Below are positions 31,401-41,140 of a stretch of DNA of 64,000 bases, one piece after another (position 1 is the stretch's first letter; each line of letters begins with the position of its first letter). The translations under genes were made by a program, and so were the position numbers. Location of the stretch: positions 16,394 through 80,393 of the forward strand of contig CAZSQZ010000009.1 in the NCBI GenBank assembly GCA_964609215.1. Direction: 5' to 3'. Source of the DNA: an uncultured Flavobacteriales bacterium. Lineage in GTDB: Bacteria; Bacteroidota; Bacteroidia; Flavobacteriales_D; JABDKJ01. Below the pieces are notes generated by a model. It ran no database searches. It saw only the letters and a list, made by a program, of their open reading frames with translations, and was not told the DNA's origin.

Positions 31401-31432
31401 CAAAAAAAGCGAGATTGCCTTGGCAATCTCGC
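31401..31432 (-). terminator. rho-independent terminator of the SPFH gene (left end of the RNA-repair island)
   Basis: Minus strand: GCGAGATTGCC-aa-GGCAATCTCGC followed by T7. Confidence 0.8.
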
Positions 31433-31450
31433 TTGTGGAACAAATTATAA

Positions 31451-32551
31451 CTACGGAGGTGAACCAAGAATGTCTTTAAGTTGGCCAATCATACTGCCTT
31501 TGCCATCAACAGTAATTTCACCGATCTTGTCAGCCACTTTTTCCACGAACTCCATTTCCTTCAATTTATAGAGCATTTGGTTGTTCTCCATTAATTTTGC
31601 TGTGTTCAACATACTTCTAGTAGAAGCTGTTTCTTCTCTTCTCATGATCATGCTGGCAGCGGCTTTTTTCTCTGCTACTAAAACTTGATTCATGATTTCT
31701 TTAATGTCGCCCGGAAGAATGATATCTTTAATACCGCAAGAAATCAATTCTACTCCAAGTGCTTTGCATTCTTTATGACTTCCGCTTTTTACAAATGAGC
31801 CTGCTTGGGTTTTTAGCTCTAAGAGTTCATCAAAGCTCAAACCACCTACATAAGCTCTTAAAGACATTTGCAAAATGGTATAGAGCTGCTTTCTGAAGTC
31901 TATGTTTTTAAGCAAAGCAAGAACTGGGTCAACGACTTTAAACGCAAATTCGAAGTTGATTCTTAAGTTGGCTTTATCTTTAGTCAAGATTTCTTGGCCG
32001 CTTAACTCCATTGATTGTTGTCTCAAATCAATAATATCAACTTGAACATTAGACAATTGCTTGTAAAAGTGATAAACACCTGGAGTCAGGGCTTCAAATA
32101 ATTTACCATCCTCTTGAACTAAACCCATTTCGAAATTTCTGATTTCAATCTTTTTCAAAATGTTGTTGTTCACCAGAGCATCTAATACTTTTTTAGAAAG
32201 GTTATCCTGAACTCTTACCTCTTTCATATTTAGTGTCTGAAATGTATAAAGAGAGTTTTCTTTCCAGTAAGCATAGATACCTTCGGTAAGAATTGATTGA
32301 AGAATGTTATTTCTATAAACCAATATAACTTGTTCGTCTGTGATTTCAAGTACGTCTAGTTGCTTGTATAGTTCTTCATTTTTCAATAACAAAGCCAGAT
32401 CAATTGGTGCATCAAAGCGCATCAAGGTATTGTAAATCTTTATTGTCTTATTGCTAAAGTTCCAGTGCTTACCGCTACTTAATACTTTGATCAAATCTTG
32501 ACCTTCAAATACGAGGCCTTTTTCGTACGTTTTAATTTTTACTCTAAACAT
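31451..32551 (-). CDS. SPFH/band-7 (slipin-like) domain protein, no obvious TM anchor
   Basis: Central SPFH-type segment (…LTKDKANLRINFEFAFKVVDPV…) followed by a coiled-coil-like region (…VAEKKAAASMIMRREETAS…). Confidence 0.7.
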   Translation of the reverse strand: MFRVKIKTYEKGLVFEGQDLIKVLSSGKHWNFSNKTIKIYNTLMRFDAPIDLALLLKNEELYKQLDVLEITDEQVILVYRNNILQSILTEGIYAYWKENSLYTFQTLNMKEVRVQDNLSKKVLDALVNNNILKKIEIRNFEMGLVQEDGKLFEALTPGVYHFYKQLSNVQVDIIDLRQQSMELSGQEILTKDKANLRINFEFAFKVVDPVLALLKNIDFRKQLYTILQMSLRAYVGGLSFDELLELKTQAGSFVKSGSHKECKALGVELISCGIKDIILPGDIKEIMNQVLVAEKKAAASMIMRREETASTRSMLNTAKLMENNQMLYKLKEMEFVEKVADKIGEITVDGKGSMIGQLKDILGSPP

Positions 32552-32840
32552 GACATATCTATTTTAATTATTCATTCAATTTTTATAAAAAAAACCAACC
32601 TTTCAGATCCATCTGAATTTAGCGGAGCAAACTCAAGCATGGTATAGTTTTATGATTTACATAATATGAGTTTTAGGCTGAGAAAAGAGTGTGAATTTTA
32701 CTGGCAGCGAAATCGCGTTGAGTAAAATTCTAGTTCAATTCTGTACCTAATGCCCAGGCTTTATTCAGATTTTTCATTCCATTGTCAAGGACAATTGATG
32801 AAAAGGACCTGAAGGTTGATTTTTTGAAAATGGGAGGTAT

Positions 32841-32918
32841 TAACTGAGCTACCTAACCTCAATAGGGGTGGAATCGAACCACCGACCTTCTCGTTTATGC
32901 GAGATGCTCTAACCACTT
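32841..32918 (-). ncRNA. tRNA-like module 2: apparently circularly permuted tRNA-like element (ends in the D-loop, acceptor helix closed by a loop)
   Basis: Minus-strand read, in order. AGTGGTTA-GAGC (D-loop 3' part plus D-stem 3' strand). TCTCG-CATAAA-CGAGA hairpin. AGGTC. GGTGG-TTCGATT-CCACC (canonical T arm, 32867-32883). CCTA-TTGAGGT-TAGG (short closed acceptor-like helix). TA. GCTC-AG (D-stem 5' strand, 32846-49), which can pair with GAGC (32906-09). Hand-folded. Confidence 0.4.
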
Positions 32919-32924
32919 GTGTTA

Positions 32925-33000
32925 CTATATAAAAGTATAGCGCGTTTTCCAATTACGCCACTGTGCCACAAGCACAGACAGGACTCGAACCTGTATAACA
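32925..33000 (-). ncRNA. tRNA-like module 1: T arm + loop-closed acceptor helix + D arm + anticodon-type hairpin
   Basis: Minus-strand read, in order. ACAGG-TTCGAGT-CCTGT (32978-32994). CTGTGC-TTGTG-GCACAG (closed 6-bp helix, 32961-32977). TG. GCGT-AATTGGAAA-ACGC (perfect D arm). G. CTATA-CTTTTA-TATAG. Hand-folded. Confidence 0.4.
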
Positions 33001-38639: not shown

Positions 38640-38640
38640 C

Positions 38641-40026
38641 TTAGGATTTTTTTCTTCTTCTTTTATTTTTCCATGGCGCATTCTTTTGCCAATCACCTGC
38701 CATAATACAACCGTAAGGCATTACTTCATCAATGACTTTTCCTAAACCATATTCATCCATCTGCGCTCGGACACTTGCTGCATTTTTATAAGCGCTTGGC
38801 AATTCGGTAACATCTATCTCATCAAAGAAAAAACGGATGTCTAAGCCCTCAGTTTCTTCTTGGAATACTTCCAATTTAGTTTTATCAGCTTTGTTCTTTC
38901 TATGTTGCGTTCTGCTAATATTTCTACCTGCTCCATGAGGAGCAAAGCCTAAATTACTGTCTGTGGTTTCGCCTTCCACAATTAAGACAGGTTCTGACAT
39001 ATTCAAAGGAATCAATCTAGGTCCAGTAATGTCAGGCATGAACTTTGGGTCAAGTGGTGTCGCACCTTTTGCATGATAGAACAAATCACCATCTTTAAAA
39101 ACAAAATTGTGTTCGTTCCAAAATCTGTTTTCTATTGTGGTATTTGTTTTCTCTCCAACAATATTGTGAAGGACTTCATGATTTAACTTTGTCCACTTTC
39201 TAATAATTTGCAATGCTTCCCAATAGCTTTTTCCTTCTTCTGTGTCAAATGGGATCCATGCATTTTGTTTCAAGGTATCTGGTGAAAGCTCTCTTCTGAA
39301 TTGTTCGGCAATTTTCATTCCTCTTGAATATAAATTGGCTCCAAATCCTCTGCTGCCATGGTGAGTAATCATCATGGTATTACCAGTGGCTTTGGACTTT
39401 CCGACAAATAAGAAATGGTTGCCATCTCCTTGAGTTCCCAAATGCGATCTAGCTGCAGAAATGCACTTCTGATTATTCAAAAATTCATTTGCTTCAATTT
39501 CCGCTAAAAGATCCATAGGAAATCTAAATTGATCTTCTCTAGATCTACCACCTGGACCAAAATGAGTGGTTGCTTGAGCAGCATCTAAAATTTCTTTTGG
39601 ATCGGCTTGACCAAAATCTGTTAGCATAACGGAGCAGCAAATATCTGCGCTGTGCATTCCTGGATGAATCGCGTTTTTTGAAACGGCAACACCTCCAACT
39701 GGAATAGTTCCTGCAGGACCTGTTGGACAGGCATCAGGCATTATTGCCCCTGCGACCATAGTTGGAGTCTTCATTAAAACATCCATTGAACCAATGACTG
39801 AATCTACATTCGTTTGTTCCAACTCGTTTTCTGCTTTAATGTTGATTGCAAATTCGACAGGTTTTTCTAAAAGCTCAATGGGGTCAGGAGTTTTGAATTG
39901 CTCTAAATATATAGCCAATTCATTGGCATTCATTTCGTTTGAATTGATATGATCCAAAGCTTCTTTAAACCATTTTCCTGGTCTGTAACCCATTTCGATT
40001 AAGTCGTTTCCGTTTAAATTTTTCAT
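38641..40026 (-). CDS. rtcB: RNA 3'-phosphate/2',3'-cyclic phosphate-5'-OH ligase RtcB
   Basis: [30 protein letters not shown] (nucleophilic His region). 461 aa. Confidence 0.9.
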
Positions 40027-40065
40027 TGTTTTTGTATTTAACTTGGGTCAAAGGTGTAATCTATG

Positions 40066-40084
40066 TGCGCAATAATTTTGCGTA
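40066..40084. promoter_or_regulatory. palindromic motif TGCGCAATAATTTTGCGTA in the rtcB/WYL divergent promoter region (candidate operator)
   Basis: CGCAA-N5-TTGCG. Near-identical copy at 33487-33505. Confidence 0.4.
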
Positions 40085-40111
40085 GATAATTTGAAAGCTT
40101 TAATTTTGTAT

Positions 40112-41140
40112 ATGGCTCAAAATAAAAACGCTCTGATAAGATATAAAACCATTGATAAATGTCTTCAAAATCAATATAGAAAATGGACTTTGGAGGATTT
40201 AATTGATGCTTGTTCAGATGCATTGAACGAATATGAAGGACGAGATATAAATGTAAGCAAACGAACTGTTCAGCTTGATATTCAGTTAATGAGGAGTGAT
40301 AAACTTGGATATAATGCACCCATTATTGCTTATGAACGCAAATATTATCGTTATGAAGATGAGAATTATTCAATCACGAATATTCCTCTTACAGAAAATG
40401 ATATGAGTGTATTGACAGAGACGGTTGAAATGTTGAAACAGTTCAAAGATTTTTCATTGTTTTCTGAGTTGGGTGGTATTATTCATCGTCTAGAGGACAA
40501 AATTCACACGGAGAAAACTCAAAACTCTTCAGTCATTCATTTAGAAAAGAATGAGAATCTAAAAGGCTTGGAGCATTTAGATTTGCTTTATCAAGCGATT
40601 CTAAAAAAGATTTGTTTGACATTGGATTATCAATCCTTCAAGGCTAAGTCATCGAGTAGAATCGTTTTTCATCCATTTATTTTGAAAGAGTTTAACAATC
40701 GCTGGTTCGTGGTTGGAAGAAAAGGGAAGAGTAGTCCCATCATTACTTTTGCCTTAGATAGAATAATAGCTATTGACTATAATTTAGACATTCCATATTT
40801 AAACGAAGACTTTGATAGAGATGAGTATTACAAAAACACAATTGGTGTAACCGTACTTAACGAAACGCAGCTGAGAGAAGTTGATTTGAAAATTGACAAA
40901 TACAATGCACCTTATGTTTTGACCAAGCCCTTTCACCAATCGCAAGAGGTAATAGAAACAGATAGATATGGAAACGTAACGGTCAGAATCAAAGTTCATT
41001 TGAATTTCGAATTGGAACGTCTCATACTAGGTTTTGGAGATTCAATTCAAGTTCTTAAACCTAGACAATTGAAGAATAGAATAAGAAGGAAATTAAAAAA
41101 TGCGATTGAGAATTATGAGAAGGCTAAGGAACCTCATTAA
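40112..41140 (+). CDS. WYL-domain transcriptional regulator (HTH-WYL-WCX architecture)
   Basis: N-terminal wHTH (NALIRYKTIDKCLQN…WTLEDLIDAC). Central WYL-type segment (…HPFILKEFNNRWFVVGRKG…). C-terminus …GDSIQVLKPRQLKNRI. I use ATG 40112; the ORF track uses TTG 40091. Confidence 0.75.
   Translation: MAQNKNALIRYKTIDKCLQNQYRKWTLEDLIDACSDALNEYEGRDINVSKRTVQLDIQLMRSDKLGYNAPIIAYERKYYRYEDENYSITNIPLTENDMSVLTETVEMLKQFKDFSLFSELGGIIHRLEDKIHTEKTQNSSVIHLEKNENLKGLEHLDLLYQAILKKICLTLDYQSFKAKSSSRIVFHPFILKEFNNRWFVVGRKGKSSPIITFALDRIIAIDYNLDIPYLNEDFDRDEYYKNTIGVTVLNETQLREVDLKIDKYNAPYVLTKPFHQSQEVIETDRYGNVTVRIKVHLNFELERLILGFGDSIQVLKPRQLKNRIRRKLKNAIENYEKAKEPH

What the first reader, a model, noticed from the sequence alone, without database searches (positions are those of the whole stretch)
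31401..41140. Composite one-strand RNA-repair island: SPFH/band-7, tRNA-like RNAs, Rnl-type ligase, ~13-member tRNA array, two RlaP-like nucleotidyltransferases, unknown protein and RtcB, with a divergent WYL regulator
Seen directly: everything from 40026 down to 31451 is on the minus strand, and the block is bracketed by terminators (31401-32, 35926-59).

The order is rtcB, then a coupled unknown gene (1-nt gap), then two overlapping Pol-beta NTase paralogues, then a terminator. A 2.6-kb stretch follows whose only credible CDS is a KxDG RNA ligase embedded among tRNA and tRNA-like genes. After ~280 nt more comes an SPFH/band-7 protein. A WYL regulator is divergent from rtcB.

Established knowledge: RtcB seals 2',3'-cyclic-P/5'-OH breaks such as those left by anticodon nucleases. 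As I recall, comparative genomics (Burroughs & Aravind, NAR 2016) linked RtcB and other ligases with a Pol-beta NTase ('RlaP'), and linked SPFH/band-7 modules with a tRNA-like RNA.

What looks new here is the scale and nature of the RNA component. There are 8 plausible but AT-rich, CCA-less tRNAs. There are also at least 7 non-canonical tRNA-derived elements: T-loop insertions, permuted modules, and 138-nt and 201-nt forms. Two mechanistically different ligases are present, and a WYL regulator takes the place of RtcR.

Inference: this is a self-contained tRNA damage-response or counter-defence module that supplies spare or decoy tRNAs and reseals cleaved ones. Alternatively, it is a system whose own RNAs mature by cleavage and ligation.
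Basis: partly seen in the sequence, partly recalled or inferred. Interest (0 to 1): 0.92.

Follow-up and report, generated by a model that had tools for sequence, protein, structure and literature searches.

The report
RNA-repair island with spare tRNA array
An uncultured flavobacterium carries a conserved gene island that puts two RNA ligases, RNA-end-repair enzymes, a private set of tRNA genes and several tRNA-mimicking RNAs next to one another, apparently under shared stress-responsive control. It looks like an emergency kit for a damaged translation machinery, and it is a richer variant of systems already predicted or partly studied in other bacteria.

Summary
**Observation: confirmed.** All six proteins hit the predicted families (Band_7, RNA_ligase, RlaP twice, RtcB, WYL+WCX). 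ARAGORN and Rfam agree on 8 CCA-less tRNAs. The "non-canonical" RNAs are real.

**Conservation.** The locus recurs in Flavobacteriaceae. Within 10 kb of the unknown protein in 28 related loci I found:
- RtcB in 22 and WYL in 21
- the RlaP pair in 12-14
- tRNA arrays of up to 17 ARAGORN-called genes in 15
- Band-7 in 8

**New parts found here:**
- A palindromic operator occurs exactly twice in the window, before rtcB and before the Band-7 RNAs, and 41 times in the related islands.
- The tRNA array has its own conserved promoter, a 39-aa leader ORF and a terminator with a covarying antiterminator.
- The odd tRNAs are array tRNAs interrupted by a ~53-nt structured insert, in either orientation and only in arrays.
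- A 203-nt tRNA-like RNA has 20 covarying pairs and no Rfam match.
- YrlA-like permuted tRNA modules sit 420-590 nt upstream of Band-7.

**Closest known systems.** These are the RtcB/RlaP/Band-7 + tRNA-like systems of Burroughs and Aravind, and the cyanobacterial "L-array" co-regulated with rtcB.

**Verdict.** This is a new variant of a known kind. Function is inferred, not shown. The idea that RtcB splices the island's own RNAs is disfavoured.

The parts
40112..41140 (+). HTH-WYL-WCX transcription regulator, divergent from rtcB; the presumed repressor of the island
   Evidence: PF13280 WYL 5e-11 and PF25583 WCX 1e-12. PADLOC WYL models down to 5.5e-26. The ATG at 40112 was read and fits the 342-aa gene call. 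A WYL gene lies within 10 kb in 21 of 28 related loci.
40068..40083 (.). Operator O1: palindrome ACGCAA-N5-TTGCG, overlapping the rtcB promoter (-7-like box about 40056-40049)
   Evidence: One of only two sites in the 64-kb window, where 0.02 are expected by chance. The same motif sits in the WYL-rtcB spacer of every related locus inspected.
38641..40026 (-). RtcB-family 3'-phosphate/5'-OH RNA ligase, divergent clade
   Evidence: PF01139 1.6e-35. Matches Pyrococcus RtcB 4dwr/1uc2 at 5e-15, with the HGAGR histidine motif aligned. 70-85% identical copies occur in 22 of 28 related loci.
37962..38621 (-). Conserved unknown protein, all alpha-helical, with a CxCC motif and an invariant TTFGDxxDxKHFLPR motif; the longest ORF runs to 38696
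37204..37950 (-). Short RlaP nucleotidyltransferase (Pol-beta superfamily)
   Evidence: PF10127 6e-61 over the full length.
36137..37207 (-). Long RlaP paralogue with an uncharacterised C-terminal half
   Evidence: PF10127 2e-25 over residues 9-126 only. The pair recurs in 12-14 of 28 loci.
35926..35959 (-). Intrinsic terminator ending the rtcB-unknown-RlaP-RlaP unit
   Evidence: A hairpin AAGCCCGAA/TTCGGGCTT followed by a T-run, read. Only weak terminator-type Rfam matches cover it.
35668..35816 (-). Array promoter region: inverted repeat CAATTG-AGAGACAGG-CAATTG (35816-35796), -33 TTG (35698-35696), -7 TAAATATTTG (35677-35668)
   Evidence: Aligned across 17 loci with these blocks conserved. 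Coordinates were read.
35527..35646 (-). Leader ORF, 39 aa (MKIALEHIIQAHLVQEQGCSSLRLFYPEFKKFYREKHLK)
   Evidence: A 37-46-aa ORF at the same place in most related loci, with a shared pattern M.NYLQHIIQ..SPK..CDERFIKY.RK.
35468..35547 (-). Candidate attenuator: antiterminator AGGGAG (35547-35542), at the end of the leader ORF, can pair with the 5' arm of the terminator hairpin 35495-35477, which is followed by a T-run to 35468
   Evidence: The terminator is conserved in 9 loci. The upstream element changes together with the terminator arm (GGAAGG/CCTTCC, GGGAG/CTCCC, TGGAG/CTCCA). It is the most stable upstream partner of that arm in 7 of 9 leaders, at -10 to -12.5 kcal/mol.
35318..35455 (-). 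Ser(TGA)-like tRNA gene interrupted in the anticodon loop by a type-2 insert (35416-35365); 138 nt
   Evidence: 7-bp acceptor GGAAAGA/TCTTTCC and a T arm, read. Type-2 profile hit at 6e-8. Orthologues with an insert: L013, L014, L009, L081. Without one: L017, L026. Degenerate here: no deletion restores an ARAGORN tRNA.
35199..35312 (-). Ser(GCT)-like tRNA gene with a 28-nt GC hairpin inserted in the T loop
   Evidence: Matches tRNA-Ser(gct) of 7 related arrays. Terminal stem and inserted hairpin appear in the fold.
35028..35192 (-). tRNA-Cys(gca) 35120-35192 and tRNA-Tyr(gta) 35028-35111
   Evidence: ARAGORN. Rfam tRNA 63.3 and 53.3 bits.
34843..34962 (-). Pro(TGG)-like tRNA gene interrupted in the T loop, after GGTTCGAA, by a type-1 insert (34905-34856)
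   Evidence: Matches tRNA-Pro and Pro-like genes of related arrays. Type-1 profile hit at 6.5e-7. It is a row of alignment A2. Fold.
34685..34835 (-). tRNA-Gln(ttg) 34764-34835 and tRNA-Leu(tag) 34685-34759
34560..34681 (-). 122-nt structured element closed by a 7-bp acceptor-like stem; probably a heavily altered tRNA
   Evidence: MFE -47.1 kcal/mol, z = -4.4. No relative found by nhmmer in the related loci.
34243..34548 (-). tRNA-Leu(taa), His(gtg), Phe(gaa), Arg(acg)
33578..34216 (-). Rnl2-type RNA ligase consisting of the adenylyltransferase domain only, with motif KIDG; the last gene of the array unit
   Evidence: PF09414 1.3e-17. T4 Rnl2 N-terminal domain 1s68 at 2e-4, with EKIDGTN aligned to EKIHGTN. 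No relative in the 80 genome loci fetched.
33469..33504 (-). Operator O2 (33504-33488), followed by the -7 box AAATATTTG (33477-33469): promoter of the unit that carries the non-coding RNAs and Band-7
   Evidence: The second of the two operator sites in the window. The same arrangement precedes the Band-7 RNA region in L003, L009, L013, L018, L019 and L026.
33193..33393 (-). TL-200: a ~203-nt tRNA-like RNA (acceptor, D arm, T arm) with a ~120-nt conserved expansion
   Evidence: Homologues at 1e-53 to 1e-68 in L011, L013, L023, L083, L084 and L085, and at 3e-39 over part of the element in L081. RNAalifold finds 49 pairs, 20 with compensatory double changes, in 7 sequences. No Rfam family matches.
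32866..33013 (-). YrlA-like circularly permuted tRNA module (T arm, 3' acceptor strand, loop, 5' acceptor strand, D arm), followed by a further tRNA-like piece
   Evidence: Rfam YrlA 28.6 bits (gathering score 69) and tRNA 24.5 bits. A perfect 7-bp permuted acceptor lies 443 nt upstream of Band-7. The same kind of module lies 420-590 nt upstream of Band-7 in the seven loci listed (the window among them). L003 has two YrlA-core matches in its Band-7 upstream region.
31451..32551 (-). SPFH/Band-7 protein with a ~130-aa N-terminal extension
   Evidence: PF01145 3e-21. 39-65% identical copies follow the array in 8 related loci.
31407..31434 (-). Intrinsic terminator closing the island
   Evidence: 12-bp stem followed by a T-run.

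Best explanation
**What it is.** The region is a chromosomal 'translation-damage island' of an uncultured flavobacterium. It has three transcription units.

**Unit 1: rtcB, unknown protein, RlaP, RlaP.**
- From established knowledge, RtcB joins 2',3'-cyclic-phosphate or 3'-phosphate ends to 5'-OH ends.
- RlaP adds one or two nucleotides to the 3' ends of damaged RNA, as shown for Pseudomonas RlaP (PMC12776372).

**Unit 2: the tRNA array with an Rnl2-type ligase.**
- It carries 8 intact tRNA genes without CCA, about 4 interrupted or degenerate ones, and a 5'-phosphate/3'-OH ligase.
- A conserved promoter, a 39-aa leader ORF and a terminator precede it.
- Proposed switch: a ribosome that finishes the leader masks the antiterminator, so transcription stops. 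A ribosome that stalls, for lack of intact tRNA or under a translation block, leaves the antiterminator free, and the array is read.

**Unit 3: TL-200, the YrlA-like tRNA mimics and Band-7.** This is presumably a ribonucleoprotein scaffold or cofactor for repair.

**Control.** Units 1 and 3 carry the same palindromic operator over their promoters. They are most likely repressed by the divergent WYL protein until a damage signal arrives.

**Shown versus inferred.**
- Shown here: gene and RNA identities, conserved linkage, the shared operator, and RNA covariation.
- Inferred: repression by WYL, the inducing signal, attenuation, charging and use of the array tRNAs, and the role of Band-7 and its RNAs.

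**The inserts.** The ~53-nt inserts in array tRNAs are most likely a small DNA-level insertion element. It targets 7-nt hairpin loops of the form TTNGAA|N and is tolerated because each array tRNA is individually dispensable.
For: **Components**
- Family hits.
- tRNAs.

**Linkage**
- Within 10 kb of the unknown protein in 28 flavobacterial-type loci: RtcB 22, WYL 21, RlaP 12-14, arrays of 3 or more tRNAs 15, arrays of 7 or more 11, Band-7 8.
- Related islands add other translation-repair genes: RtcB2 with a PrfH-like RF-1 protein, a CCA-adding-type enzyme, an RNase T-type exonuclease, and an R2K ATP-grasp protein.

**Regulation**
- The operator ACGCAA-N5-7-TTGCG occurs twice in the window against 0.02 expected.
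- It occurs 41 times in the 28 loci, each time followed by a Bacteroidetes-type -7 box, in front of the rtcB, unknown-protein, RlaP and Band-7/RNA units.
- The array upstream region, leader ORF and terminator are conserved.
- The antiterminator covaries with the terminator arm and is its best upstream partner in 7 of 9 leaders.

**tRNAs under selection**
- Array tRNA-Phe genes from 8 loci keep their stems through compensatory changes and form a lineage distinct from housekeeping tRNA-Phe.
- 214 of 216 ARAGORN-called tRNAs in the related loci and the window, nearly all of them array genes, lack an encoded CCA. Some islands carry a CCA-adding-type enzyme.

**Non-coding RNAs**
- TL-200 has 20 covarying pairs.
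- Permuted modules lie at a fixed distance from Band-7.

**Precedent**
- In Anabaena a long tRNA array, rtcB and a slipin gene are de-repressed together under translational stress (PMC8421152, PMC10272220).

**Inserts**
- 19 type-1 and 10 type-2 copies were found, all inside array tRNA-like genes and none elsewhere in about 1.5 Mb.
- 5 of the 19 type-1 copies are reversed.
- The insert's own helix covaries in the element's orientation.
Against: - No expression, binding or activity data exist for any part.
- The array promoter lacks the operator, so the array and the repair genes share no regulatory motif that I could find. Their co-regulation is not shown.
- The purine-rich antiterminator also encodes conserved residues of the leader peptide, so its conservation has a second possible cause. 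Only three covariation variants support the pairing.
- The window's own array is small and partly degenerate: 4 of 12 members are not recognisable as tRNAs even after removal of the insert. This copy may be losing function.
- The unknown protein's wider family occurs outside RNA-repair contexts.
- No PADLOC defence model matches anything except WYL.
- Whether the array tRNAs are supernumerary could not be checked, because the rest of the genome is not in hand.
Confidence: 0.6

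Rival explanations
1. The island processes its own RNAs. The interrupted tRNAs are intron-bearing precursors. An unidentified nuclease cuts out the ~53-nt inserts, leaving cyclic-phosphate and 5'-OH ends, and RtcB (or Rnl2 after end healing) joins the exons. 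That would be a bacterial protein-dependent tRNA-splicing pathway.
For: - The inserts sit only in loops of array tRNAs next to RtcB.
- Deleting 49-57 nt restores a canonical tRNA in many related loci.
- The interrupted host stems stay 86% paired.
- Some isoacceptors exist in an array only in interrupted form, for example Val in L014.
- The T-loop site lies after nucleotide 59, outside the five-nucleotide T-loop core (from established tRNA structure).
Against: - 5 of 19 type-1 copies, and some type-2 copies, are in reverse orientation relative to the tRNA. The element's conserved sequence and its G.A-containing helix are nevertheless kept in the element's own orientation. One RNA-level recognition cannot serve both orientations.
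- In element orientation both kinds of target read TTNGAA|N, which points to target choice on DNA.
- There is no bulge-helix-bulge motif, no EndA-like gene, and no ribozyme hit in Rfam.
- The unknown protein has no nuclease-like fold.
- The window's interrupted copies are degenerate.
Confidence: 0.1
2. The array tRNAs and tRNA mimics are not used in translation. They act as decoys or sponges for anticodon nucleases, or as RNA cofactors that Band-7 and RtcB need, and only the protein enzymes repair housekeeping RNAs.
For: - Array tRNAs lack CCA and differ from housekeeping ones. Array tRNA-Phe, for example, has a G37-type anticodon loop TTGAAGC where housekeeping Phe has CTGAAAA.
- Many members carry inserts that should block decoding.
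- YrlA-like mimics and TL-200 cannot decode at all.
- A sponge role was proposed for the Anabaena array (PMC8421152), and nuclease inhibition was proposed for YrlA (PMC7790460).
Against: - The arrays keep nearly one gene per amino acid, with intact anticodons and identity-bearing stems across genera. That is more than a decoy would need.
- In Anabaena, 23 of 26 array tRNAs are aminoacylated in vivo (PMC8421152).
- A leader-peptide attenuator fits a supply function better.
Confidence: 0.2
3. There is no functional unit. A horizontally acquired, decaying tRNA array of phage or mobile-element origin happens to lie beside an RtcB-RlaP operon and a Band-7 gene.
For: - Single array tRNAs find their best public matches among phage tRNAs, in tRNA-sized pieces at 75-90% identity.
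- The window's array is reduced and riddled with insertions.
- The array has its own promoter without the operator.
Against: - The same neighbourhood recurs in at least 15 genomes of different genera, with the order array then RNAs then Band-7 preserved even where the block has moved relative to rtcB, as in L009 and L019.
- The operator is shared by the flanking units.
- No comparable block exists in the phage or plasmid collections.
Confidence: 0.1

Closest known systems
RtcB-centred RNA-repair systems with RlaP and with SPFH/Band-7 plus a tRNA-like RNA (Burroughs and Aravind, NAR 2016; known to me through bioRxiv 10.1101/312249 and PMC12776372, because the paper itself could not be opened)
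   Same: - RtcB next to PF10127 nucleotidyltransferases.
- A cytosolic-looking Band-7 protein next to a tRNA-like or YrlA-like RNA.
- Modular shuffling of ligases: Rnl2 here, RtcB2 in seven related islands, with a PrfH-like gene after it in the one checked.
   Different: - No RtcA, RtcR, Ro60/Rsr or archease was found in the window island.
- There are two RlaP paralogues and an extra conserved helical protein.
- A whole array of ordinary tRNA genes is present.
- A 203-nt tRNA-like RNA is present.
- A WYL regulator with a shared operator is present.
- I could not check whether that paper already mentions tRNA arrays.
Cyanobacterial long tRNA arrays (L-arrays), e.g. the Anabaena PCC 7120 trn operon, with the TrcR regulon (PMC8421152, PMC10272220)
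   Same: - A supernumerary-looking, operon-like set of about one tRNA per amino acid.
- A functional tie to rtcB and to an SPFH (slipin) gene.
- Repression released under translational stress in Anabaena. Here, repressor-type operators and an attenuator suggest the same logic.
   Different: - In Anabaena the genes are scattered and tied together by an RHH repressor restricted to cyanobacteria. Here they are physically adjacent and the regulator is an unrelated HTH-WYL-WCX protein.
- The array here has a leader ORF and terminator.
- Array members here carry a specific insertion element.
- Stress induction has not been tested here.
[quoted passage not shown]
   Same: - A circularly permuted tRNA core: T arm, closed acceptor hairpin, D arm.
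- It is encoded next to RtcB.
   Different: - It scores 26-30 bits against a gathering score of 69.
- Only model positions 23-88 match in the related locus L003. No Ro-binding stem is evident, and no Ro60 gene was found.
- Modules occur in tandem inside a longer conserved RNA upstream of Band-7.
HTH-WYL-WCX regulators (PafBC, DriD, BrxR/CapW type; from my own knowledge)
   Same: - Domain architecture.
- Divergent placement next to the genes it would control.
- A palindromic site over the promoter.
   Different: - The controlled genes are RNA-repair genes rather than DNA-damage or phage-defence genes.
- The ligand is unknown.
- I found no paper linking WYL regulators to rtcB.
IS200/IS605-type palindrome-associated miniature elements, and archaeal non-canonical tRNA introns (both from my own knowledge)
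   Same: - Like the miniature elements: a small element with a terminal hairpin, inserted next to a short fixed target, in either orientation, with no obvious target duplication.
- Like the archaeal introns: an interruption in tRNA loops, including the T loop.
   Different: - Only ~53 nt long.
- The target is a 7-nt hairpin loop of tRNA genes.
- No transposase was identified.
- There is no bulge-helix-bulge motif and no splicing endonuclease.

Membership tests
RtcB RNA-repair operon (Rtc type) | RtcB ligase with the GMP-binding histidine motif | tested here: met
   PF01139 1.6e-35. [12 protein letters not shown] aligns with STCHGAGRVLSR of Pyrococcus horikoshii RtcB.
RtcB RNA-repair operon (Rtc type) | RtcA cyclase and the sigma-54 activator RtcR (CARF domain) | tested here: not met
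   None of the island ORFs hits these families. A WYL regulator occupies the divergent position instead.
RlaP-associated repair systems | A PF10127 nucleotidyltransferase in the same operon as an RNA ligase | tested here: met
   Two PF10127 genes lie downstream of rtcB on the same strand, ahead of the first terminator.
Band-7 + tRNA-like RNA module (b7a-tRNA/YrlA) | An SPFH/Band-7 protein encoded beside RtcB | tested here: met
   PF01145 3e-21. Conserved downstream of the array in 8 related loci.
Band-7 + tRNA-like RNA module (b7a-tRNA/YrlA) | A conserved tRNA-like non-coding RNA immediately upstream of the Band-7 gene | tested here: met
   Permuted tRNA modules lie 420-590 nt upstream of Band-7 in the seven loci listed, the window among them. 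L003 has two YrlA-core matches in the same region. Whether this is the very RNA called b7a-tRNA could not be checked, because the paper is not held.
Rfam YrlA (RF02553) | Score at or above the gathering threshold, including the Ro-binding stem | tested here: not met
   28.6 bits in the window and 30.0 and 26.3 bits in L003, against a threshold of 69. In L003 only the tRNA-like core (positions 23-88) aligns.
Long tRNA arrays (L-arrays) | A dense one-strand run of many tRNA genes covering most amino acids | tested here: inconclusive
   The window has 8 canonical tRNAs plus about 4 altered ones. Related islands have up to 17 ARAGORN-called array genes. Published arrays reach 26-43 genes (PMC8421152).
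Long tRNA arrays (L-arrays) | The genes are supernumerary to a housekeeping tRNA set | not testable with these tools
   The rest of the genome is not available. Indirect support: array tRNA-Phe is a lineage distinct from the housekeeping tRNA-Phe seen in L003 and L018.
Long tRNA arrays (L-arrays) | Silent, then induced under translational stress together with rtcB | not testable with these tools
   Only sequence-level hints are available: the leader ORF with its attenuator and the operators.
HTH-WYL-WCX regulators | WYL and WCX domains | tested here: met
   PF13280 5e-11 and PF25583 1e-12.
HTH-WYL-WCX regulators | Binds a specific site in the promoters it controls | not testable with these tools
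   A conserved palindrome is the candidate site. Binding was not tested.
Archaeal/eukaryal-type tRNA introns | A bulge-helix-bulge motif at the exon-intron junctions and a splicing endonuclease | tested here: not met
   The consensus structure of the insert is a hairpin plus a G.A-containing helix. No EndA-like gene was found in the islands examined. Reversed copies exist.
IS200/IS605-like miniature elements | A terminal hairpin, a fixed short target on one side, and both orientations | tested here: met
   The hairpin ATGC-WWW-GCAT is near-invariant. The left flank always ends in (G/A)AA within TTNGAA. 5 of 19 copies are reversed.
IS200/IS605-like miniature elements | A cognate Y1 transposase in the genome, and copies outside tRNA genes | tested here: inconclusive
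   No copy lies outside arrays in about 1.5 Mb. One partial copy occurs in a viral contig, L090. Whole genomes could not be searched for a transposase.

The most novel reading that the evidence does not exclude
The ~53-nt inserts in the T loops and anticodon loops of array tRNAs are genuine intervening sequences. They are cut out of the transcript and the exons are rejoined by the neighbouring RtcB or Rnl2 ligase. Bacteria would then have a protein-dependent tRNA-splicing pathway, so far known only in archaea and eukaryotes. The element would spread at the DNA level but persist because it is spliced.
Probability: 0.1. Interest if true: 0.95.

Novelty: new variant of a known kind. Interest (0 to 1): 0.68.

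Why it matters
**An open question made testable.**
- What bacterial RtcB, RlaP, Band-7 and tRNA-like RNAs do together is still unsettled.
- Long tRNA arrays are understood in one cyanobacterium only.
- This flavobacterial island places all these parts side by side, in cultured relatives (Flavivirga, Kordia, Aquimarina, Winogradskyella).
- It carries two clear regulatory handles: a shared operator next to a WYL regulator, and a leader-peptide/terminator unit before the array.
- That gives a compact system for asking how cells sense damaged tRNA and respond with both repair and resupply.

**Three further objects worth study in their own right.**
1. A 203-nt tRNA-like RNA with strong covariation and no known family.
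2. Tandem YrlA-like tRNA mimics without Ro.
3. A tiny structured element that inserts specifically into tRNA hairpin loops.

**If the attenuator works as proposed,** it would be a direct translational sensor that switches on spare tRNAs.

Tried and rejected
1. **Ribozymes or known RNAs in the odd elements.** A permissive Rfam scan (E up to 10) of 32400-36200 gave only tRNA, a sub-threshold YrlA match and chance-level hits.
3. **The unknown protein as a marker of RNA repair in general.** Distant homologues (L029-L080, P0039) mostly lack RtcB or RlaP neighbours.
4. **Phage origin of the RNAs.** Scans of viral contigs for the TL-200 core and for the type-1 insert core gave only chance matches and one partial copy. 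BLAST against phage and plasmid records gave only single-tRNA-sized hits.
5. **Hammerhead or K-turn reading of the insert's YGA...GAR motif.** Considered by eye. The hammerhead reading was rejected because the equivalent of the essential G5 is a C. The K-turn reading was rejected because the covarying pair abuts the G.A pairs with no 3-nt bulge.
6. **Restoring the window's interrupted tRNAs.** Brute-force deletion of every 20-110-nt segment restores ARAGORN tRNAs in many related loci but in none of the window's gaps.
7. **A column-wise count of the antiterminator pairing.** This was not possible because of a 1-nt indel between variants, so I used a duplex search instead.
8. **The Burroughs and Aravind 2016 paper.** It could not be opened by DOI or by PMC id.
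9. **The terminator scanner.** It misses the terminators at 35959-35926 and 35495-35468, which are plain in the sequence.

Full report
**1. What is in the window**

From 40026 down to 31451 every credible gene lies on the minus strand.

| Gene | Coordinates | Evidence |
|---|---|---|
| RtcB | 38641-40026 | PF01139 1.6e-35 |
| short RlaP | 37204-37950 | PF10127 6e-61 |
| long RlaP | 36137-37207 | PF10127 2e-25, N-terminal half only |
| RNA ligase | 33578-34270 | PF09414 1.3e-17 |
| Band-7 | 31451-32551 | PF01145 3e-21 |
| WYL+WCX regulator (divergent) | 40112-41140 | PF13280 5e-11, PF25583 1e-12 |

- RtcB aligns with Pyrococcus RtcB through the HGAGR histidine motif.
- The small ligase is the adenylyltransferase domain of the Rnl2 type, with motif KIDG.
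- The 244-aa ORF between rtcB and the RlaP genes has no family hit. Its conserved start is M26 at position 38621.
- ARAGORN and Rfam agree on eight tRNAs between 34243 and 35192. None has an encoded CCA.
- The window is part of a 123-kb contig of JGI metagenome 3300002927.
- The island sits between ordinary chromosomal genes: a transglycosylase and a DAG kinase on one side, and a homocysteine methyltransferase, an ECF sigma factor and uvrA on the other.

**2. The locus is a conserved island, not a chance neighbourhood**

I used the unknown protein as a probe. It retrieved 183 genome loci, of which 80 were fetched with 10-kb flanks. In the 28 loci of flavobacterial type the same parts recur:

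| Part within 10 kb | Loci (of 28) |
|---|---|
| RtcB of the same clade (70-85% identity) | 22 |
| WYL regulator | 21 |
| RlaP pair | 12-14 |
| one-strand tRNA array, 3 or more genes | 15 |
| tRNA array, 7 or more genes | 11 |
| Band-7 | 8 |

- The arrays reach 17 ARAGORN-called genes on the island strand.
- The Band-7 count is a lower bound, because several arrays run to the end of the fetched DNA.
- The order array, then non-coding stretch, then Band-7 is kept even where this block has moved to the other side of rtcB, as in L009 and L019.
- The second ligase is a variable slot. The window's Rnl2-like gene has no relative in the 80 genome loci fetched. Seven of the 28 islands carry a second, canonical RtcB. 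In L013 that gene scores PF01139 8.5e-81 and is followed by a PrfH-like RF-1 protein, which is the known ribosome-repair pair (PMC13166195).
- Other islands add a CCA-adding-type enzyme with an HD domain, an RNase T-type exonuclease, DUF434+DUF5616, an RNase H-like PF04308 protein and an R2K ATP-grasp protein.
- Outside the Flavobacteriaceae the unknown protein mostly occurs without these neighbours.
- Its predicted structure is a confident all-helical fold with no resemblance to an enzyme. I treat it as an adaptor of unknown role.

**3. Regulation: a shared operator**

The spacer between the WYL gene and rtcB holds a palindrome, ACGCAA-N5-TTGCG (40068-40083). It lies over a Bacteroidetes-type promoter (-7 box TAnnTTTG).

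- The same palindrome occurs once more in the 64-kb window, at 33488-33504. That site is 74 nt after the Rnl gene and just before a -7 box and the non-coding RNAs that precede Band-7.
- Two sites (three strand-wise matches) were found, where 0.02 are expected by chance.
- In 1.44 Mb of fetched loci the motif occurs 44 times on the strand scanned. Of these, 41 lie in the 28 flavobacterial islands, typically 12-14 nt upstream of a -7 box. They stand in front of rtcB, the unknown gene, the RlaP genes and the Band-7 RNA unit.

This is the signature of a regulon with one repressor. The divergently encoded WYL protein is the obvious candidate, though that is an inference. I found no paper that links WYL regulators to rtcB.

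In enterobacteria the equivalent role is played by RtcR, which senses tRNA fragments (PMC7790460). In Anabaena it is played by the RHH repressor TrcR (PMC10272220).

**4. Regulation: the array has its own promoter, leader peptide and attenuator**

The 460 nt between the terminator at 35959-35926 and the first tRNA-like gene are not empty. Seventeen loci align here. The conserved blocks, in order, are:

1. An inverted repeat CAATTG-AGAGACAGG-CAATTG (35816-35796).
2. A -33/-7 promoter (35698-35668).
3. A short ORF (35646-35527, 39 aa). Its product shares the pattern M.NYLQHIIQ..SPK..CDERFIKY.RK with the 37-46-aa ORFs of most other loci.
4. An intrinsic terminator (35495-35477 plus a T-run).

The last codons of the ORF contain a purine block (AGGGAG, 35547-35542) that can pair with the 5' arm of the terminator.

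- The block changes together with that arm: GGAAGG with CCTTCC, GGGAG with CTCCC, TGGAG with CTCCA.
- In 7 of 9 leaders it is the most stable upstream partner of the arm.

I infer classical attenuation. A ribosome that completes the leader covers the antiterminator, so the terminator forms. A ribosome that stalls earlier, for want of intact tRNA or under a translation block, leaves the antiterminator free, and the array is transcribed.

The support is moderate. There are only three covariation variants, and the block also encodes conserved residues.

**5. The tRNAs**

- Across the related loci and the window, 214 of 216 ARAGORN-called tRNAs lack an encoded CCA, and nearly all of them are array genes. 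The sets approach one gene per amino acid.
- Array tRNA-Phe genes from eight loci keep every stem through compensatory changes. They differ sharply from the housekeeping tRNA-Phe found elsewhere in L003 and L018, which has a canonical D loop, the anticodon loop CTGAAAA and, in L018, an encoded CCA.
- They are therefore a separate lineage under selection for tRNA shape.
- The window's array is a reduced version: Arg, Phe, His, two Leu, Gln, Tyr and Cys, plus four altered members.

**6. The 'non-canonical tRNAs' are array tRNAs hit by a small insertion element**

Gaps of 120-150 nt in the arrays of related loci contain tRNAs interrupted by a recurrent insert.

*Type 1* (~53 nt) reads ATGC-WWW-GCATTCAYGAA ... 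RYGAGCTAA.
- A profile finds 19 copies.
- 14 lie in T loops, directly after GGTTCGAA. The window's Pro-like gene is one of them (insert 34905-34856).
- 5 lie in anticodon loops in the reverse orientation.
- In the element's own orientation, both kinds of target read TTNGAA|N in a 7-nt hairpin loop.

*Type 2* (~56 nt) has 10 copies.
- It is related at both ends: ATGAG...ATTCAACGA...GAGTTAAAA.
- It lies mostly in anticodon loops, as in the window's 138-nt Ser(TGA)-like gene (insert 35416-35365).

*Distribution.*
- All copies lie inside array tRNA-like genes.
- None lies elsewhere in the window, in the non-array parts of the loci, or in the 52 unrelated loci.
- All five hits of a metagenome scan lie in arrays too. 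That pattern included the T-loop flank, which biases it toward tRNAs.

*Structure.* The element has a near-invariant hairpin and a helix built of a C-G/U-A pair, tandem G.A pairs and two further pairs.
- The three Watson-Crick pairs show 4, 5 and 5 double changes and are 96.5% paired.
- The interrupted host stems remain 86% paired.

*Deletion test.* Deleting 49-57 nt restores an ARAGORN tRNA in many related loci, but in none of the window's gaps.

*Reading.* The element keeps its sequence and structure in its own orientation whichever way the tRNA runs. The simplest explanation is therefore a miniature DNA-level insertion element with a hairpin-loop target, tolerated because single array tRNAs are dispensable.
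- Splicing by RtcB is not excluded for the forward copies. No nuclease, bulge-helix-bulge motif or ribozyme supports it.
- The other two altered members differ. The Ser(GCT)-like gene (35312-35199) carries a different 28-nt GC hairpin in its T loop.
- The 122-nt element at 34681-34560 folds stably (z = -4.4) but has no detectable relatives.

**7. RNAs between the array and Band-7**

*TL-200 (33393-33193).*
- It has close homologues (1e-53 to 1e-68) in six other loci, and a further one in L081 matched over part of its length (3e-39).
- It has a tRNA-like acceptor stem, D arm and T arm. A ~120-nt expansion contains invariant single-stranded runs (TTTGCAGAAGCACCGAAA and AGTAGGGAAGCGCATTTAGAG).
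- RNAalifold predicts 49 pairs, 20 of them with compensatory double changes, in only seven sequences. These include a long-range helix with two compensated positions.
- No Rfam family matches it.

*YrlA-like module (33013-32923).*
- The order is T arm, 3' acceptor strand, 3-nt loop, 5' acceptor strand, D arm. This is the circularly permuted tRNA core of YrlA.
- Rfam gives 28.6 bits, below the gathering score of 69.
- The closest relative, L001, has a completely different but equally complementary 7-bp acceptor.
- Modules of this kind lie 420-590 nt upstream of Band-7 in the seven loci listed, the window among them.
- They often occur in tandem inside a ~600-nt conserved non-coding region. In L003 that region holds two YrlA-core matches.

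This fits the Band-7-associated tRNA-like RNA predicted by Burroughs and Aravind, as reported in bioRxiv 10.1101/312249. I could not open the original paper.

**8. How it most likely works**

*Shown.* The parts, their conserved linkage, the shared operator and the covarying RNAs.

*From established knowledge.*
- RtcB seals cyclic-phosphate/5'-OH breaks.
- Rnl2-type enzymes seal 3'-OH/5'-phosphate nicks.
- RlaP adds one or two nucleotides to damaged 3' ends and restores chargeability of over-trimmed tRNAs (PMC12776372).

*Inferred.*
- Damage to the translation apparatus relieves WYL repression of the repair enzymes and of the Band-7 ribonucleoprotein.
- Stalled translation of the leader opens the attenuator, so that a private set of tRNAs is made. 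These are finished by the cell's own or the island's CCA-adding enzyme.
- The tRNAs either replace the broken ones or soak up the nuclease.

The nearest experimental precedent is Anabaena. There a 26-gene array, rtcB and a slipin gene are de-repressed together under translational stress, and 23 of the array tRNAs are charged (PMC8421152, PMC10272220).

**9. Novelty and verdict**

- Every protein family and the general idea are known or predicted, so this is not a new kind of system.
- New, as far as I could check:
  - the physical fusion of a tRNA array with the RtcB/RlaP/Band-7 modules in one phylum-specific island
  - the WYL regulator with a shared operator
  - the leader-peptide attenuator in front of a tRNA array
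  - TL-200
  - the tRNA-loop insertion element
- The window's own copy is a reduced and partly degenerate example of the island.
- I rate it a new variant of a known kind, with interest 0.68.

Noticed in passing
L013 17437-17562; L014 16751-16837; L026 13096-13162; L081 (reverse-complemented) about 3940-4000, inside its TL-200: A third recurrent ~65-nt element (AGGACGAAACGTTAAGAAAATGTCTGGTAGACATTTTTAGTGAACGTGCCAG...) sits between array tRNAs and, in L081, inside the anticodon-like loop of TL-200. It contains a clear hairpin. It was not seen in the window.
   Followed up: no
L090 12124-12175 (IMG/VR contig IMGVR_UViG_3300037322_000192): A partial type-1 insert-like sequence (profile positions 1-39, E = 7e-5) lies in a viral contig with no tRNA nearby. 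It is the only candidate copy found outside a tRNA array.
   Followed up: partly
L003 13562-13635; L005 17903-17976; L020 14885-14957; L024 13793-13865: ARAGORN calls a 'tRNA-SeC (tca)' of ordinary length next to tRNA-Asp at the start of several arrays. This could be a UGA-reading tRNA or a miscalled member.
   Followed up: no
L013 12691-14771 (and similarly placed in L014): Related islands carry a canonical RtcB2 followed by a PrfH-like RF-1-domain protein, which is the pair known to repair colicin-E3-cut ribosomes. In other words, rRNA repair and tRNA functions share one island.
   Followed up: partly
L081 (reverse-complemented) about 4150-4185: The T loop of the TL-200 RNA itself carries a type-1-like insert (CCAGTTCGAA|ATGTTAATCATTCATGAATAC...). 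The element therefore targets tRNA-like T loops generally, not only true tRNAs.
   Followed up: no
window 34320-34393, and array tRNA-Phe genes of L009, L013, L014, L017, L023, L026, L082: Array tRNA-Phe has the anticodon loop YTGAAGM (G at position 37) and an unusual D arm. Housekeeping tRNA-Phe in L003 and L018 has CTGAAAA. This suggests the array tRNAs escape or lack the usual position-37 modification.
   Followed up: partly
window 35495-35468 and 35959-35926: Two clear hairpin-plus-T-run terminators are not reported by the terminator scan, although at least the first seems to meet its stated rules. Negative results from that tool should be read with care.
   Followed up: no
window 41124-41648: A 174-aa ORF matches only the last part of the transglycosylase domain (PF00912 positions 92-169) and overlaps the end of the WYL gene. 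It may be a truncated PBP gene marking the edge of the island.
   Followed up: no
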